Sequence record: NC_002014.1
DNA from: Salmonella phage IKe
Reading direction: 5' to 3' (one strand)
Length of the DNA: 6,883 bases
Shown: piece after piece, positions 1-6,883 of the stretch
Position numbering within the stretch: the stretch's first letter is position 1
Layout: each line of letters begins with the position of its first letter
Made by a program: the position numbers and the translations under genes
Notes under the pieces: model-generated
What the model was told of the DNA's origin: nothing
Seen by the model: only the letters and a program-made list of their open reading frames with translations
Databases searched by the model: none

Positions 1-6
1 GAATTC

Positions 7-1272
7 ATGATCGACATGCTGGTGTTAAGGATACCTTTTAAAAGCTCTCTTGTGTCGGAGCGTCTTGATTCTAAGGGAAATTATGTTTCCCATGTGAATC
101 TTGCTGAGGTTGCACGACTCTCCGGTCTGACTCTCGCAGCACATACCGTTGAATATGCCATTGATGGTGATTTAACTGTATCCGGCCTTAAGCATCCTTA
201 CGAATCTCTTCCGTCTCATTATGCGGGTATCGCGCTGAAAATTTTTGAGGGCGGTAAAAACTTCGAGCCTTGTGTAGAGTTGAAAGCATCTCCGGCGAAG
301 TTGTTACAAGGTCACAACGTTTTTGGCCCGACTTCCTTTGAATTGTGTGGATTGGAGTTTTTCGGCGCTTTTGCGGCGGCTATGCCTGAACTGTATGACT
401 TGTGCGATGTAACTAATACTGTAGTTGGTCGTATTGACGTTACATTTAGTGCAAAGGTTGCTAACGATCATATTGCTAATCAGGTCATTTCCTTCCTTCG
501 TAATGTTTCTAATGGTCAGACCAAAAAGACTCGCGCCCTTGATTATGAAACCACTGTTATGTGGAACGAAGGGAGTCGCCATCGTACCCTTGTTGCATAT
601 TTGAAACATCATGAGGTACAGGCTCAGATCAAGAGACTACAAAAAAAGAAAAGCTCTCATCTTACGATCTACGAAAAAAATTGCTTGGAAGTATTAAGCA
701 ATCCTGATTTGCAATTATATGCAGTTGGCCTTGTTAGATTTGAGGCTAGACTTCATACACGTTTTTTTGAAAATTTTGGCTTGCCTAGAAAGTTCTTTGA
801 TATAGTTAAATATCAAGATAATTATGAAAGTGGCTCATTTAATTTAATTTGTGACCTGTGGAAAAAATCGTTTAAAGATCTGTTTGATGCCTTTAAAGGT
901 TCTGATATGAATGTTTATGATGATTCTAAAGTTTATGATGCTTTAATAAATAACTTTTCTTCTGTTACTAAATCAGGCAATATTTCTAATTCCAAAGCTA
1001 ACCGTTTATTTGGTTTTTATCGTCGCTTGGTGAATGAAGGTTATGATAATGTAGCTCAAACGATGGAACGCACTACATTCTGGCGCTCTCTAAAGGAATT
1101 AACTTCTGTAGGTTTGTCAAAGGCTCAATTAATGAACCTTTCGACGGATAATAATGTAGTGCCGTTGGTTCAAATGATTAATGTTGATTTTTCTCAGCAA
1201 TATCCTGAATGGTATGTTGAACCGGTATCTATTTTTAATCGTTCTAATGTAGTCAGCATTAACGCTGCTTAA
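7..1272 (+). CDS. II: Gene II protein (pII), replication initiator: site-specific nickase/ligase for rolling-circle replication
   Basis: 421-aa ORF starting MIDMLVLR; N-terminus and long blocks (GHNVFG, SRHRTLVAYLKH, LVRFEAR, FGFYRRLVNEGYD, LMNLS..NNVVPLV..INVDFS) match M13/f1 pII from memory. TAA stop at 1270-1272. Confidence 0.95.
   Translation: MIDMLVLRIPFKSSLVSERLDSKGNYVSHVNLAEVARLSGLTLAAHTVEYAIDGDLTVSGLKHPYESLPSHYAGIALKIFEGGKNFEPCVELKASPAKLLQGHNVFGPTSFELCGLEFFGAFAAAMPELYDLCDVTNTVVGRIDVTFSAKVANDHIANQVISFLRNVSNGQTKKTRALDYETTVMWNEGSRHRTLVAYLKHHEVQAQIKRLQKKKSSHLTIYEKNCLEVLSNPDLQLYAVGLVRFEARLHTRFFENFGLPRKFFDIVKYQDNYESGSFNLICDLWKKSFKDLFDAFKGSDMNVYDDSKVYDALINNFSSVTKSGNISNSKANRLFGFYRRLVNEGYDNVAQTMERTTFWRSLKELTSVGLSKAQLMNLSTDNNVVPLVQMINVDFSQQYPEWYVEPVSIFNRSNVVSINAA
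907..1272 (+). CDS. X: Gene X protein (pX), in-frame internal translation start within gene II, C-terminal 121 aa of pII
   Basis: In-frame ATG at 907 (MNVYDDS), equivalent to the M13 pX start MNIYDDS; AAGG at 896-899 gives a 7-nt spacer. Same stop as gene II. Confidence 0.8.
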   Translation: MNVYDDSKVYDALINNFSSVTKSGNISNSKANRLFGFYRRLVNEGYDNVAQTMERTTFWRSLKELTSVGLSKAQLMNLSTDNNVVPLVQMINVDFSQQYPEWYVEPVSIFNRSNVVSINAA

Positions 1273-4837: not shown

Positions 4838-6151
4838 ATGAAATTACAGGCTGAAAAGAAATTAATTTTTGGGTATGTTGCTCTCTGTTTCCTTATGACA
4901 TTAGGCATTGCATTTAATGTTCTGGCTGATCCGGTCAATTTAAATAACGCTCCGGTGCGTTCGTTTGTGCAATGGTATTCGCAAAAATCTAATAAAGCTG
5001 TTGTTGTAAATCCTGATGTTAAAGGAAATATTACTGTATTTAATGCAGATGTTAATCAGGCCAATATTGATGATTTCTTTAAGTCTGTTCTTAACGCTAA
5101 TGGCTTTGTTCTTATGGCTGGTGATCCTTCAGGTGTGTCTACTCCGTCAAAGCTGCCTTCTCAACAGACCGATAATGATGATGATTATGAAGATTCCGCG
5201 GATTATGTTCCGGTTGGTGATTCTGTTCCGGTATCTGCCCAACCGCAAAAGCCTTTAGATCTTACCGTTCGCAATTTTAAGTTAACCCGCGTGCGTTCTT
5301 CTGACGTTCTTCCGCTTGCCAAAATCTTTGTCGATTCCAACGGTGGCGGCGATGTTATTGATTACCCAGGCAATAACAGCCTGTTGGTTTCTGGTTCTGC
5401 TGCTATCATGAATGCCCTGGCTGATTTCATTACGTCAATCGACGTTGCCCGTGATCAGGTTCTTATTCAGTCGCTTATGTTTGAAACCAGCTTAGTTAAT
5501 GGCGTGGATCTTTCTTTTGCTGCCGGTTCTGCTTCTGGTGATAAGGTCGCAGGCGGTTTCAATACATCTGCTCTTGGCACTGCACTTTCAACTGCTGGCG
5601 GTTCCTTCGGCATCTTTAACGGTAATGTTTTAGCGTTATCCATTCAGGCGGTAAAAAATGACTCTAATTCAAAAGTTATTTCTACCCCGCGCATCCTGAC
5701 GCAATCAGGTCAGACAGGTTACATCTCTGTAGGTCAAAATGTGCCGTTTGTCACTGGTAAGGTAACGGGTGAGGCTGCAAATGTTAACAACCCTTTCCAG
5801 ACCATTGAGCGCCGCGATGTTGGTGTTTCTCTTAAGGTGACGCCTGTTGTCATGGGTAATGGTCAGCTTGTTCTTACCATTGATACCAAAGCTGACTCCC
5901 TAACCAGTCAAATGACTGCTAGCGACATCATTACTAATCAGCGTCATATGCAAACGACAGTGCAGATAAAAGACGGTCAGACGCTTTTGCTTGGTGGTCT
6001 TATCGATTCCAATACAACTGACGGTAATCGCTCTGTACCTTGGTTTGAAAGCGTACCTGTGATTGGCTGGTTGTTCCGCAGCCATAGTGATTCGCATAAC
6101 GAAAGAACTATGTTTGTTCTCCTTACCGCGCACGTTATTAAGGCGCTTTGA
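4838..6151 (+). CDS. IV: Gene IV protein (pIV), outer-membrane secretin for phage extrusion
   Basis: ATG at 4838 (AAGG at 4827-4830), 3 nt after the gene I stop. N-terminal signal peptide, then blocks matching M13 pIV: LDFSFAAGS, SAGGSFGIFNG, STPRILT, VGQNVPFVTG.VTGE.ANVNNPFQTIER, DGQTLLLGGL. TGA stop at 6149-6151. Confidence 0.93.
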   Translation: MKLQAEKKLIFGYVALCFLMTLGIAFNVLADPVNLNNAPVRSFVQWYSQKSNKAVVVNPDVKGNITVFNADVNQANIDDFFKSVLNANGFVLMAGDPSGVSTPSKLPSQQTDNDDDYEDSADYVPVGDSVPVSAQPQKPLDLTVRNFKLTRVRSSDVLPLAKIFVDSNGGGDVIDYPGNNSLLVSGSAAIMNALADFITSIDVARDQVLIQSLMFETSLVNGVDLSFAAGSASGDKVAGGFNTSALGTALSTAGGSFGIFNGNVLALSIQAVKNDSNSKVISTPRILTQSGQTGYISVGQNVPFVTGKVTGEAANVNNPFQTIERRDVGVSLKVTPVVMGNGQLVLTIDTKADSLTSQMTASDIITNQRHMQTTVQIKDGQTLLLGGLIDSNTTDGNRSVPWFESVPVIGWLFRSHSDSHNERTMFVLLTAHVIKAL

Positions 6152-6340
6152 GGCTGCCGGGTAGGTGCGCTAGCCCTGCCCGTAGACTCTTGCGCCTCTC
6201 CGTGTGCGCGGCTTCGATACAACGTATGTTCCTCGGTTTTCACATCCATAATGGCTGCGGTGCTAACGGCTAGTTAGTACGTGATAATTTTCACGTACTC
6301 CGCCCTTCTCTTTCGGCGTTCTCCGGCGTCGAATCGTCAA
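6152..6340 (+). other. GC-rich noncoding segment at the position of the Ff morphogenetic (packaging) signal; includes a 9-bp-stem hairpin at 6276-6299
   Basis: Lies immediately after gene IV, where the hairpin A packaging signal sits in Ff phages. GC-rich against an AT-rich genome. Perfect inverted repeat agtacgtga (6276-6284) / tcacgtact (6291-6299) with loop taattt. The exact packaging hairpin could not be folded by eye. Confidence 0.3.
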
Positions 6341-6344
6341 ACGC

Positions 6345-6460
6345 TAAATCGTGGGGGCCCCTTTGGGCCGATTTAGTGATTTACGACACTCCATAAATAT
6401 CCTTGTTATGGGTGATGGTTCACGTAGTGGGCCATCGCCTTGTTAGACGTTTTTTTCTTT
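6345..6460 (+). other. Minus-strand (complementary-strand) origin region, the site of RNA-primer synthesis by host RNA polymerase on the ssDNA
   Basis: Strong similarity to the Ff minus-strand origin as I recall it (aaatcg.ggggc.ccctttgggccgatttagtg...). The 30-nt block 6410-6439, gggtgatggttcacgtagtgggccatcgcc, appears identical to M13. Confidence 0.6.
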
Positions 6461-6473
6461 TGGTGATCGATAA

Positions 6474-6550
6474 GCGATTTTGTAGTTTGACGGTCGTAGA
6501 CGAAAGGACGTGGAAGCGGCGATTTTGGATCTGGCAGTCGGCTCGGTCGT
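6474..6550 (+). repeat. Imperfect direct duplication within the inter-origin spacer
   Basis: gcgattttg occurs at 6474-6482 and 6519-6527; cggtcgt occurs at 6491-6497 and 6544-6550. The spacing is consistent with an imperfect duplicated unit of about 45-53 nt. GATC sites at 6465-6468 and 6528-6531. Confidence 0.4.
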
Positions 6551-6553
6551 GGT

Positions 6554-6600
6554 GAGTCCACTATGTTTAATAGTGGACTCTTGTTGCATTTTGCAACGTG
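6554..6600 (+). other. Plus-strand replication origin core: pII nick-site hairpin and adjacent pII-binding hairpin
   Basis: Perfect 11-bp inverted repeat gagtccactat (6554-6564) / atagtggactc (6570-6580) with loop gttta, homologous to the M13 nick hairpin (gagtccacgttctttaatagtggactc). By analogy, the nick is between T6568 and A6569. Second hairpin gttgca-ttt-tgcaac at 6583-6597, at the position of Ff hairpin E. Confidence 0.8.
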
Positions 6601-6798
6601 CTACAGCCCTCTCTCCTTCAAAACTCCTTCGATTGCTTCTTCAAGTTTATGTTTTATAAGATAATTTATCAGTTCTGATTTTTTTATAGGCAAACCAGCT
6701 CTTTTTGTTGCTTCGACAGTTGCCGTTACCAGTAAATTTTGCATGTGCCTATTGATAGTTACTGTAGTTCTACTGCCTCTTTTACCTAGTGTATTCAT
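6601..6798 (-). CDS. Hypothetical small basic protein (65 aa) encoded antisense in the intergenic region; putative ribbon-helix-helix (CopG/Arc/MetJ-like) DNA-binding protein
   Basis: Minus-strand ATG (plus 6796-6798), preceded on the minus strand by AGGA (plus 6807-6810) with an 8-nt spacer. The ORF stays open in AT-rich noncoding DNA. The product has a basic N-terminal tail, a predicted beta-strand (TTVTI), helix A (NRHMQNLLVTATVEATKRA), a G-containing turn (GLP) and helix B (KKSELINYLIKHKLEE), resembling the RHH pattern. No homology search was possible. Confidence 0.35.
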   Translation of the reverse strand: MNTLGKRGSRTTVTINRHMQNLLVTATVEATKRAGLPIKKSELINYLIKHKLEEAIEGVLKERGL

Positions 6799-6828
6799 AA
6801 AATAAATCCTAAAGATCTTTACAAATAG

Positions 6829-6856
6829 TTGCGTTTAAATTTACATGTGTTAAATT
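6829..6856 (+). promoter_or_regulatory. Putative gene II promoter (circular context): -35 TTGCGT, 16-nt spacer, extended -10 TGtTAAATT
   Basis: -35-like TTGCGT at 6829-6834 and TGnTAAATT at 6848-6856, about 35 nt upstream of the gene II ATG once the window is circularized. Weak match, assigned by eye only. Confidence 0.3.
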
Positions 6857-6883
6857 ACGCACATGGTGAGTGTTTGAGTGCTT

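What the first reader, a model, noticed from the sequence alone, without database searches (positions are those of the whole stretch)
6834..6866. Repeat and palindrome cluster between the antisense ORF start and the gene II start: candidate shared operator
The segment ttaaatttacatgtg (6834-6848) is followed by ttaaattacgcacatgg (6850-6866), an imperfect direct repeat of the form TTAAATT-AC-(GC)-ACATG. It contains the palindrome ACATGT (6843-6848) and the self-complementary TAAATTTA. It lies within the putative gene II promoter on the + strand and, at the same time, about 40-70 nt upstream of the antisense ORF on the minus strand. RHH proteins typically bind short direct or inverted repeats in their own promoter region. 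The arrangement would allow one protein to control both divergent transcription units, including pII synthesis and hence replication. Alternatively these are host-factor sites, as IHF binds the equivalent domain B in Ff.
Basis: inference. Interest (0 to 1): 0.55.

Follow-up and report, generated by a model that had tools for sequence, protein, structure and literature searches.

The report
Phage IKe gene II promoter core
The "repeat cluster" is essentially the ordinary bacterial-type promoter that drives the replication gene (gene II) of filamentous phage IKe; the repeat itself is not conserved, although a real, overlooked small DNA-binding-type gene sits next to it and could still regulate this promoter.

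Summary
The window is the 6883-nt genome of filamentous phage IKe. The described sequences are there (copy 1 is 6835-6849, one base off; copy 2 at 6850-6866 and ACATGT at 6843-6848 are correct). As repeats they are barely above chance: the 7-mer direct repeat gives p=0.045, the dyad p=0.24, and no k-mer is enriched in the spacer.

In 16 IKe-like relatives the only invariant columns in 6829-6866 are TTG (6829-31), T6846, TG (6848-49), T6851, A6852, T6856 and A6863. That is a sigma-70 promoter with -35 TTGCGT, a 16-bp spacer, extended -10 TGTGtTAAATT, and a start near A6863, 27 nt before the gene II ATG. Copy 1 is promoter spacer. Copy 2 is -10, discriminator and start site. TTAAATT (copy 1), TAAATTTA and ACATGT vary even in the closest relatives.

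A geometrically better operator candidate is the set of three conserved tandem 8-bp boxes in the gene II leader (6866-6883 plus 1-6). The IHF / domain B alternative is not supported.

The parts
6829..6834 (+). -35 hexamer TTGCGT of the gene II promoter (P2)
   Evidence: TTG is invariant in 16 relatives at a fixed 16-bp distance from the -10. It is the top plus-strand PWM hit in 10 of 13 spacers and is present in all 13.
6835..6849 (+). Positions 6835-6845 are variable. Positions 6846-6849 (TGTG) are the TRTG extended -10 motif.
   Evidence: Fixed-register table: only T6846, T6848 and G6849 are invariant. TTAAATT is replaced by TTATATT, TAAAAAT, TGGGAAT, TAGATTT, ATTGGGT and others.
   Evidence: T6851, A6852 and T6856 are invariant (the TAnnnT pattern). 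The hexamer reads TAAATT, TACATT, TACTTT, TACTGT, TAGATT or TACAGT in relatives. TG lies at -15/-14.
6857..6865 (+). Discriminator ACGC plus the predicted transcription start region CACATG. The start is predicted at A6863 (possibly A6861).
   Evidence: A6863 is invariant, 7 nt after the -10. ACATGG is kept in at least 80% of relatives. The start is inferred, not mapped.
6844..6865 (.). Dyad CATGTG (6844-6849) / CACATG (6860-6865) bracketing the -10.
   Evidence: Kept in the IKe/PEar/L008/L018/L014 group (extended to 7 bp in L010 and L018, p=0.03-0.05). Absent in L013, L017, L005, L020 and L027. The arms never vary where present, so there is no covariation evidence. All 4 CACATG sites of the genome lie within 238 nt.
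6866..6883 (+). Gene II leader: tandem 8-bp boxes GTGAGTGT and TTGAGTGC, plus the start of the third box (TTGAATTC continues at 1-6)
   Evidence: This is the most conserved stretch of the spacer. Lag 8 is the best autocorrelation lag in all 11 RHH-bearing lineages tested and not in M13.
1..6 (+). End of the third 8-bp box (GAATTC), directly before the gene II ATG
7..1272 (+). Gene II (replication initiator pII, 421 aa)
   Evidence: 98.8% identical to the annotated pII of the PEar phages.
6601..6798 (-). Conserved 65-aa antisense gene with a predicted ribbon-helix-helix fold. It is not among the genes annotated in the deposited PEar genomes.
6807..6811 (-). Shine-Dalgarno sequence of the antisense gene (TAGGA on the minus strand), 8 nt before its ATG
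   Evidence: TCCTA (plus strand) is kept in 11 of the 12 aligned spacers; CC is invariant and the flanking T, T and A are at least 90%.
6818..6846 (+). Weaker alternative or tandem promoter P1: TTTACA (6818-6823), 17 bp, TTACAT (6841-6846)
   Evidence: Its distance to the ATG (43 nt) matches that of M13 TTTACA-17-TACAAT. It lacks A at -11 and is not conserved in L007, L017, L027, L022 or L034-L038.

Best explanation
Positions 6829-6866 are the core of the sigma-70 promoter of gene II, the rolling-circle replication initiator of phage IKe. The elements are -35 TTGCGT (6829-6834), a 16-bp spacer, a TRTG-type extended -10 (TGTG 6846-6849, n, TAAATT 6851-6856), discriminator ACGC, and initiation at about A6863. 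This gives a roughly 27-nt leader made of three 8-nt boxes before the ATG at window 7.

Copy 2 is the -10, discriminator and start site. The TTAAATT...TTAAATT direct repeat and the small palindromes are incidental features of an AT-rich promoter in this particular isolate.

Shown: positional conservation of exactly the promoter-defining bases across lineages whose synonymous sites are saturated. Inferred: that RNA polymerase uses it and starts at A6863. Whether the neighbouring RHH protein also binds here, for example at the CATGTG/CACATG dyad around the -10, remains open.
For: 1) Identity and layout. The window is IKe (6883 nt). Gene II starts at 7.

2) Fixed-register comparison of 16 spacers (MAFFT alignment of 12). 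The only invariant columns in 6829-6866 are TTG 6829-31, T6846, T6848, G6849, T6851, A6852, T6856 and A6863. These correspond to -35 TTG, TRTG, TAnnnT and +1 A. Spacing is a constant 16 bp (17 in L022).

3) PWM scan. This promoter is the best plus-strand hit in 10 of 13 spacers, within 0.1 bit of the best in 2 more, and present in all. Its -10 ends 33-36 nt before the ATG (70 in L021).

4) Control. The same PWM picks TTTACA-17-TACAAT (score 13.0) upstream of M13 gene II, which I recall as the known Ff gene II promoter.

5) Divergence is large enough for conservation to be meaningful: dS is 0.6-1.8 in the adjacent ORF.

7) The segment 6834-6883 is kept almost unchanged (two variable columns in the aligned stretch) in the PEar1/2/6 records, which lack most of the ORF.
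Against: - The built-in consensus scan found no promoter in 6100-6883. Its rule needs 9 of 12 hexamer matches, and this promoter relies on the TG extension.
- The single-sequence PWM score (9.4) is reached by 26% of shuffles of this AT-rich spacer. The case therefore rests on conservation, not on score.
- No mapped 5' end could be consulted. Stump et al. 1997 and Madison-Antenucci & Steege 1998 are not in the library.
- A second candidate promoter, TTTACA-17-TTACAT, lies 10 nt upstream at the position equivalent to the Ff promoter.
- The PEar1/2/6 records also lack the plus-origin nick site, so they may be defective or misassembled. Point 7 above is therefore weak.
- ACATGG around +1 is more conserved than start-site selection alone requires.
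Confidence: 0.75

Rival explanations
1. Operator overlapping the promoter. The RHH protein from the antisense gene binds the ACATG-type sites at 6843-6849 and 6860-6865 (the dyad bracketing the -10), occludes RNA polymerase, represses gene II, and possibly represses its own divergent promoter. This is compatible with the promoter reading rather than exclusive of it.
For: - RHH fold prediction.
- The gene is always divergent from gene II with a 91-136 nt spacer.
- The dyad is kept in the IKe/PEar/L008/L018/L014 lineages and is 7 bp long in L010 and L018 (p=0.03-0.05).
- ACATGG at the start site is kept in at least 80% of relatives.
- All 4 CACATG sites of the genome, and all 3 in PEar4, cluster within 238 and 136 nt around this promoter. 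A rough post-hoc estimate is p about 2e-4.
- Outgroup inoviruses with homologous or analogous small divergent ORFs have obvious repeated boxes over their gene II promoters.
- L022 has a perfect 12-bp palindrome, ATAACATGTTAT, at the same place.
Against: - The left arm is largely explained by the TRTG extended -10 motif, and the right arm by the start site.
- The arms never vary where present, so there are no compensatory changes.
- The dyad is absent in L013, L017, L027 and the L005/L020/L040 group, although their proteins keep the same beta-strand (RTTVTIN).
- Centre-to-centre spacing is about 17 bp, unlike adjacent RHH subsites (7-11 bp).
- No k-mer enrichment in the spacer.
- The CACATG copies at 6742 and 91 are codon-constrained (His-Met and His-Val).
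Confidence: 0.25
2. Tandem promoters. Copy 1 carries the -10 (TTACAT, 6841-6846) of an upstream promoter P1 with -35 TTTACA (6818-6823). Copy 2 carries the -10 of P2. The 'repeat' would then reflect two -10-like AT-rich hexamers 10 nt apart.
For: - P1 sits 43 nt before the ATG, as M13's TTTACA-17-TACAAT does.
- In L013 and L014 the equivalent P1 (TTAACG-17-TAACGT / TAATAT) scores as well as P2 (9.4-9.5).
- TTTACA recurs with period 22 (6818 and 6840).
Against: - IKe's TTACAT lacks the near-essential A at -11 (score 5.0).
- It becomes TTGCAT in the nearest relatives L034-L038.
- It is absent from L007, L017, L027 and L022.
Confidence: 0.15
3. Host-factor (IHF) site equivalent to the Ff replication enhancer, domain B.
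For: The segment is AT-rich (GC 0.23-0.32).
Against: - No match to WATCAANNNNTTR with up to 1 mismatch anywhere in 5004-6883.
- The element is about 265 nt from the nick site (GTTT^AATAGTGGACTC, 6565-6580).
- The region directly 3' of the core origin, where domain B lies in Ff, is occupied in IKe by the antisense gene.
Confidence: 0.04
4. Structural element in single-stranded viral DNA or in RNA (a hairpin formed by the dyad).
For: A DNA fold pairs TTGCG/CGCAC and AATTTA/TAAATT.
Against: - The DNA fold is not better than shuffles (-5.7 kcal/mol, z=-1.25).
- The leader RNA fold gives z=+0.22.
- No Rfam match.
- The left arm lies upstream of the predicted start.
Confidence: 0.03

Closest known systems
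Gene II promoter and leader of Ff phages (M13/f1/fd)
   Same: Same gene (pII is 60% identical). Same position at the end of the intergenic region. An AT-rich sigma-70 promoter followed by a short G/U-rich leader. In Ff that leader is the target of gene V protein translational repression (my knowledge: Michel & Zinder 1989).
   Different: Ff uses TTTACA-17-TACAAT, 43 nt before the ATG. IKe-like phages use TTGnnn-16-TGnTAnnnT, 33-36 nt before the ATG. Ff has neither a divergent small gene nor the 8-nt periodic leader. In Ff the space between origin and promoter is the domain B enhancer.
CopG (RepA) / Pcr promoter of rolling-circle plasmid pMV158
   Same: A small RHH protein encoded next to the gene for a rolling-circle initiator. 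CopG-family proteins are among the top structural hits. Its beta-strand pattern, R-x-T-x-T (RLTITLS), resembles IKe's RTTVTIN. CopG's operator overlaps its promoter (my knowledge).
   Different: copG is co-transcribed upstream of repB, whereas the IKe gene is divergent. CopG binds a 13-bp pseudosymmetric element at the -35. There is no significant sequence similarity (no Pfam RHH family above its cut-off). Binding of the IKe protein is untested.
RstR / PrstA of CTXphi and similar repressors of temperate filamentous phages
   Same: A small repressor gene transcribed divergently from the replication-initiator gene, with operators in the intervening spacer (my knowledge).
   Different: RstR is a helix-turn-helix protein of a lysogenic, integrating phage. 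IKe is a non-integrating episomal phage and its protein is RHH-like.
ORF13 of Pseudomonas filamentous phage PMBT54 (omega-like RHH)
   Same: An RHH-type regulator annotated in an episomally maintained inovirus and proposed to act in copy-number control (PMC10534721).
   Different: A different protein family and phage lineage. No operator is defined there either.
MetJ metbox and omega heptad operators
   Same: Arrays of 7-8 bp tandem boxes bound by RHH dimers. The IKe gene II leader has three tandem 8-bp boxes.
   Different: They are transcribed and could instead act at the RNA level.

Membership tests
Sigma-70 promoter, extended -10 class | -35 element with TTG, 16-18 bp from the -10 | tested here: met
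   TTGCGT at 6829-6834 with a 16-bp spacer. TTG is invariant in 16 relatives.
Sigma-70 promoter, extended -10 class | -10 hexamer with T at -12, A at -11 and T at -7 | tested here: met
   TAAATT at 6851-6856. T6851, A6852 and T6856 are invariant.
Sigma-70 promoter, extended -10 class | TG at -15/-14 (TRTGn) | tested here: met
   TGTG at 6846-6849. T6846, T6848 and G6849 are invariant in the 16 sequences with 16-bp spacing. L022 (17-bp spacer) lacks it.
Sigma-70 promoter, extended -10 class | Transcript 5' end 6-8 nt downstream of the -10 | not testable with these tools
   Predicted at A6863 (invariant). The papers that mapped IKe mRNAs are not in the library.
Ribbon-helix-helix (RHH/MetJ/Arc) superfamily (the 65-aa ORF product) | N-terminal beta-strand followed by two helices | tested here: met
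   AF2 monomer, pLDDT 85: extended residues 9-16, helices 17-34 and 40-62. The strand is not scored as beta in the monomer.
Ribbon-helix-helix (RHH/MetJ/Arc) superfamily (the 65-aa ORF product) | Structural similarity to solved RHH proteins | tested here: met
Ribbon-helix-helix (RHH/MetJ/Arc) superfamily (the 65-aa ORF product) | Sequence match to a curated RHH family above threshold | tested here: not met
   - Pfam: no hit for the IKe protein. RHH_3 matches 5 of 15 members only at E>=0.013, below the cut-off.
- PHROG 2503 (unknown function) matches at E=2e-7; Arc-like PHROGs only at E 0.2-0.5.
- No PDB sequence hit.
Ribbon-helix-helix (RHH/MetJ/Arc) superfamily (the 65-aa ORF product) | Obligate dimer that binds DNA through the paired beta-ribbon | not testable with these tools
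   Needs biochemistry or a complex structure prediction.
   TTAAATT has period 15, and the ACATG sites are about 17 bp apart. Spacing norms are from my knowledge of MetJ, omega, Arc and CopG.
   TTAAATT (copy 1), TAAATTTA and ACATGT vary among relatives that keep the RTTVTIN-type strand. The dyad is absent in L013, L017, L027 and the L005 group. The ACATGG at the start site is conserved, but that is confounded with promoter function.
   Direct repeat p=0.045 and inverted repeat p=0.24 in IKe. Inverted repeat p=0.03-0.05 in L010 and L018. K-mer test p>0.2.
IHF site / Ff domain B enhancer | Match to WATCAANNNNTTR | tested here: not met
   No match with up to 1 mismatch in or near the element.
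IHF site / Ff domain B enhancer | Position immediately 3' of the core plus origin | tested here: not met
   The nick-site motif is at 6565-6580. The element lies about 265 nt away, with the ORF in between.

The most novel reading that the evidence does not exclude
IKe-like inoviruses, unlike Ff, carry a previously unannotated RHH repressor gene between the plus origin and gene II. Its product would bind the gene II control region, either at the CATGTG/CACATG dyad around the -10 or, more plausibly, at the three tandem 8-bp boxes at +4 to +27. This would throttle synthesis of the replication initiator and give a CopG-like copy-number circuit in a classical 'simple' filamentous phage. The overlapping divergent promoters would make the gene autoregulated.
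Probability: 0.3. Interest if true: 0.6.

Novelty: new member of a known kind. Interest (0 to 1): 0.33.

Why it matters
As a promoter it is routine. It fixes where gene II transcription of IKe-like phages most likely starts, and it shows that these phages use an extended -10 promoter shifted about 10 bp from the Ff one.

The surrounding context is of more value. A small RHH-type gene under purifying selection sits in what has been treated as the non-coding intergenic region of a phage sequenced in 1985. It is always paired divergently with the replication-initiator gene. If it controls this promoter, IKe-like phages have a layer of replication control that the Ff paradigm lacks. That would affect how IKe-derived vectors and "intergenic region" fragments are used.

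Tried and rejected
- The built-in promoter scan found nothing in 6100-6883. I replaced it with my own PWM that includes a TG bonus.
- A consistent minus-strand promoter for the ORF could not be found. The best IKe candidate is TTAACA-17-AACTAT, which fully overlaps P2 (score 7.2). It is largely a mirror-image by-product of the plus-strand TGnTA and TTG, and it is not positionally conserved.
- Foldseek against the PDB gave no significant hits. A PDB sequence search gave only spurious hits.
- Scans of GTDB genomes and of metagenome contigs added nothing or one locus.
- Literature on IKe transcripts was not retrievable. No paper linking IKe to an RHH or repressor was found.
- An apparently invariant A at -20 (6843) in the first alignment was overturned by closer relatives, which have G in L034-L038.
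- The apparent A-to-G change in both ACATG copies of L027 does not fit the inverted-repeat register, so I did not count it as covariation.
- The PEar1/2/6 'ORF-less' genomes were demoted as evidence because they also lack the plus-origin nick site.
- IHF, hairpin and Rfam explanations were rejected.

Full report
**What the window is.** The 6883-nt window is the complete genome of the N-pilus-specific filamentous phage IKe. Its length and gene order match the description of IKe in the PEar phage paper (PMC7697814). The Erwinia phages PEar1/2/4/6, reported there as about 92% identical to IKe, are its nearest relatives in the phage collection. Gene II (pII, 421 aa) starts at window 7. Because the genome is circular, the reported element at 6834-6866 lies 24-55 nt upstream of gene II. 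It also lies 36-68 nt upstream of a 65-aa ORF on the minus strand (6601-6798).

**Observation.**
- TTAAATT occurs at 6835-6841 and 6850-6856. Copy 2 is 6850-6866 as stated.
- ACATGT (6843-6848) and TAAATTTA (6836-6843) are correct.
- There is also an inverted repeat, CATGTG (6844-6849) / CACATG (6860-6865).
- In dinucleotide shuffles of the 44-nt promoter segment, a direct repeat of at least 7 nt arises in 4.5% and an inverted repeat of at least 6 nt in 24%.
- No 5- to 8-mer is over-repeated in the 97-nt spacer (p=0.25-0.83).
- The sequences are real, but the repeat is at most marginally above chance.

**Relatives.** The ORF protein has 14 homologs (68-97% identity) among 5.8 billion clusters. 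All lie on IKe-like contigs of about 6.6-7.5 kb. A full HMM search of 1.84 billion representatives found only 9 proteins at E<=1e-3. In every locus fetched, the ORF is divergent from gene II with a 91-136 nt spacer. Its stop codon lies about 20 nt from the plus-origin nick-site motif AATAGTGGACTC.

**The ORF is a real gene with a predicted RHH fold.**
- Pairwise dN/dS against IKe is 0.12-0.26, with dS 0.6-1.8. The ORF is therefore under purifying selection, and neutral sites between these lineages are close to saturated.
- An AlphaFold2 model (pLDDT 85) shows an extended N-terminal segment followed by two helices.
- Sequence methods do not reach curated thresholds. RHH_3 matches at E>=0.013 in 5 of 15 members. 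PHROG 2503, of unknown function, matches at E=2e-7.

**What is conserved in the element.** I aligned 12 spacers and then placed 16 in a fixed register. The consensus over 6829-6866 is TTG...........acaT.TG.TA.a.T....acAtGg. The invariant positions are:
- TTG at 6829-6831
- T6846
- T6848 and G6849
- T6851 and A6852
- T6856
- A6863

These are exactly the determinants of a sigma-70 promoter of the extended -10 class: -35 TTG, a 16-bp spacer, TRTGn, TAnnnT, and a purine start 7 nt after the -10.

A PWM scan ranks this promoter first on the plus strand in 10 of 13 spacers and finds it in all. The same PWM recovers TTTACA-17-TACAAT upstream of M13 gene II. The IKe score alone is not significant, since 26% of shuffles reach it. 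The argument is the positional conservation.

Copy 2 is the -10, discriminator and start site.

Copy 1's TTAAATT reads TTATATT in L034, TAAAAAT in the PEar phages and L010, TGGGAAT in L018 and TAGATTT in L008, and is unrelated in more distant lineages. ACATGT is GCATGT in the nearest relatives L034-L038. TAAATTTA is IKe-specific.

**What could still be an operator.**
- The CATGTG/CACATG dyad around the -10 is retained in the IKe, PEar, L008, L018 and L014 lineages. It is 7 bp long in L010 and L018 (p=0.03-0.05).
- It is missing in L013, L017, L027 and the L005/L020/L040 group, even though their proteins keep the same beta-strand (RTTVTIN).
- Its left arm coincides with TRTG and its right arm with the start site. 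The arms never vary where present, so there is no covariation either way.
- All four CACATG sites of the IKe genome, and all three of PEar4, fall within 238 and 136 nt around this promoter. That is suggestive, but it is a post-hoc observation, and two of the sites are codon-constrained.

**Context from outgroups.** Phages and elements with pII 43-47% identical to IKe's also have a small divergent ORF next to gene II. These are Dulem virus 52, Inovirus D_HF5_61, Dulem virus 57 and an Arsenophonus nasoniae plasmid-borne element. For Dulem virus 52 the hhalign probability is 73%; the others are judged similar by eye. Their spacers contain obvious repeated boxes over the predicted promoters:
- GTGAGC x5 in both orientations in Dulem virus 52 (p=0.014)
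- TGTATACAAA x2 in Dulem virus 57
- GACATGTTTA x2 in Arsenophonus (ACATGTTTA matched twice), with a shorter CATGTTTAC copy nearby

This makes a repressor-operator circuit at the gene II promoter a reasonable general model. It also shows what a clear operator signal looks like, and the IKe element does not show one.

The gene II leader (6866-6883 plus 1-6) consists of three tandem 8-bp boxes: GTGAGTGT, TTGAGTGC and TTGAATTC.
- It is the most conserved part of the spacer.
- Lag 8 is the best autocorrelation lag in all 11 RHH-bearing lineages examined, and not in M13.
- Dulem virus 52 has GTGAGCAA x2 at the same place, and further copies of that box upstream in both orientations.
- An 8-bp array is MetJ-like geometry for RHH dimers.
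- The equally plausible rival is an RNA-level role, as a gene V protein translational operator (as in Ff) or in ribosome binding.

**Rejected alternatives.**
- IHF: no consensus match.
- Ff domain B: the segment is not positionally equivalent. That region abuts the nick site (about 6568/6569), and in IKe the ORF occupies it.
- Structure: no significant ssDNA or RNA fold.
- RNA families: no Rfam hit.
- Tandem promoter: the upstream candidate TTTACA-17-TTACAT is weak and not conserved.

**Verdict.** The element is the core of the gene II promoter (confidence about 0.75). The repeat is incidental. Regulation of this promoter by the neighbouring RHH protein is plausible (about 0.25-0.3 for binding within or adjacent to the element) but unshown. 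Interest is modest for the element itself. The unannotated RHH gene and the 8-bp boxes are the parts worth an experiment.

Noticed in passing
window 6866-6883 + 1-6: Three tandem 8-bp boxes (GTGAGTGT, TTGAGTGC, TTGAATTC) fill the gene II leader up to the ATG. They are conserved in all IKe-like relatives (L017 has three TTGAGTGT-type units, two of them identical). Dulem virus 52 has a parallel arrangement, GTGAGCAA x2, plus three more copies of that box upstream. They could be an RHH operator array (MetJ-like 8-bp period) or a gene V protein / ribosome target on the mRNA. Their TGA triplets place a stop codon in all three frames just before gene II.
   Followed up: partly
window 6601-6798 (-): A 65-aa gene under purifying selection with a predicted RHH fold lies in the 'intergenic region'. 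It occupies the position of the Ff domain B enhancer, and its stop is about 20 nt from the plus-origin nick-site motif. It is not annotated in the PEar genomes. Homologs in public records are 'hypothetical protein'.
   Followed up: yes
window 6864-6878: A mini-ORF, ATG GTG AGT GTT TGA (MVSV*), begins at the predicted transcription start and would therefore be leaderless. An equivalent short ORF ending at a box TGA is present in most relatives (MVSA* in several; TTG-started in L022 and L027).
   Followed up: no
L002-L004 (PEar6, PEar2, PEar1) versus window 6478-6730; L001 (PEar4) 6400-6520: The deposited PEar1/2/6 genomes lack about 230-280 nt. The missing stretch includes most of the RHH gene and also the plus-origin nick-site motif AATAGTGGACTC, so they are probably defective variants or misassemblies. 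In PEar4 the origin is rearranged exactly at the nick site (GCGAT|AATAGTGG... and ...CTATGTTT|CAACCC), and the RHH ORF runs on to 90 aa.
   Followed up: partly
L006 (NZ_CP047661.1, E. coli pLD39-1-6kb) 148-336: PLSDB/RGI labels the 62-aa homolog of the RHH ORF as 'FONA-6 beta-lactamase, identity 100%'. This is clearly a spurious resistance-gene annotation on an IKe-like replicative form recorded as a plasmid.
   Followed up: no
window 91-96, 6742-6747, 6844-6849, 6860-6865: All four CACATG/CATGTG hexamers of the IKe genome lie within one 238-nt circular stretch around the gene II promoter. PEar4 has three, within 136 nt. Two of the IKe sites are in coding sequence (His-Met in the RHH gene, His-Val in gene II).
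   Followed up: partly
L029 (Dulem virus 52), L030 (Inovirus D_HF5_61), L032 (Dulem virus 57), L033 (Arsenophonus nasoniae pArsFIN5): Distant pII relatives (43-47% identity) also carry a small ORF divergent from gene II. For Dulem virus 52 the homology is weakly supported by hhalign (probability 73%); the others are only similar by eye. Each has its own repeated boxes over the predicted promoters, so the module looks older than the IKe clade and is absent from Ff.
   Followed up: partly
L007 (NZ_CP019266.1, E. coli p13C1065T-7, 18,287 bp): This 'plasmid' contains three copies of the RHH gene and pII matches. It is apparently a multimer of an IKe-like replicative form.
   Followed up: no
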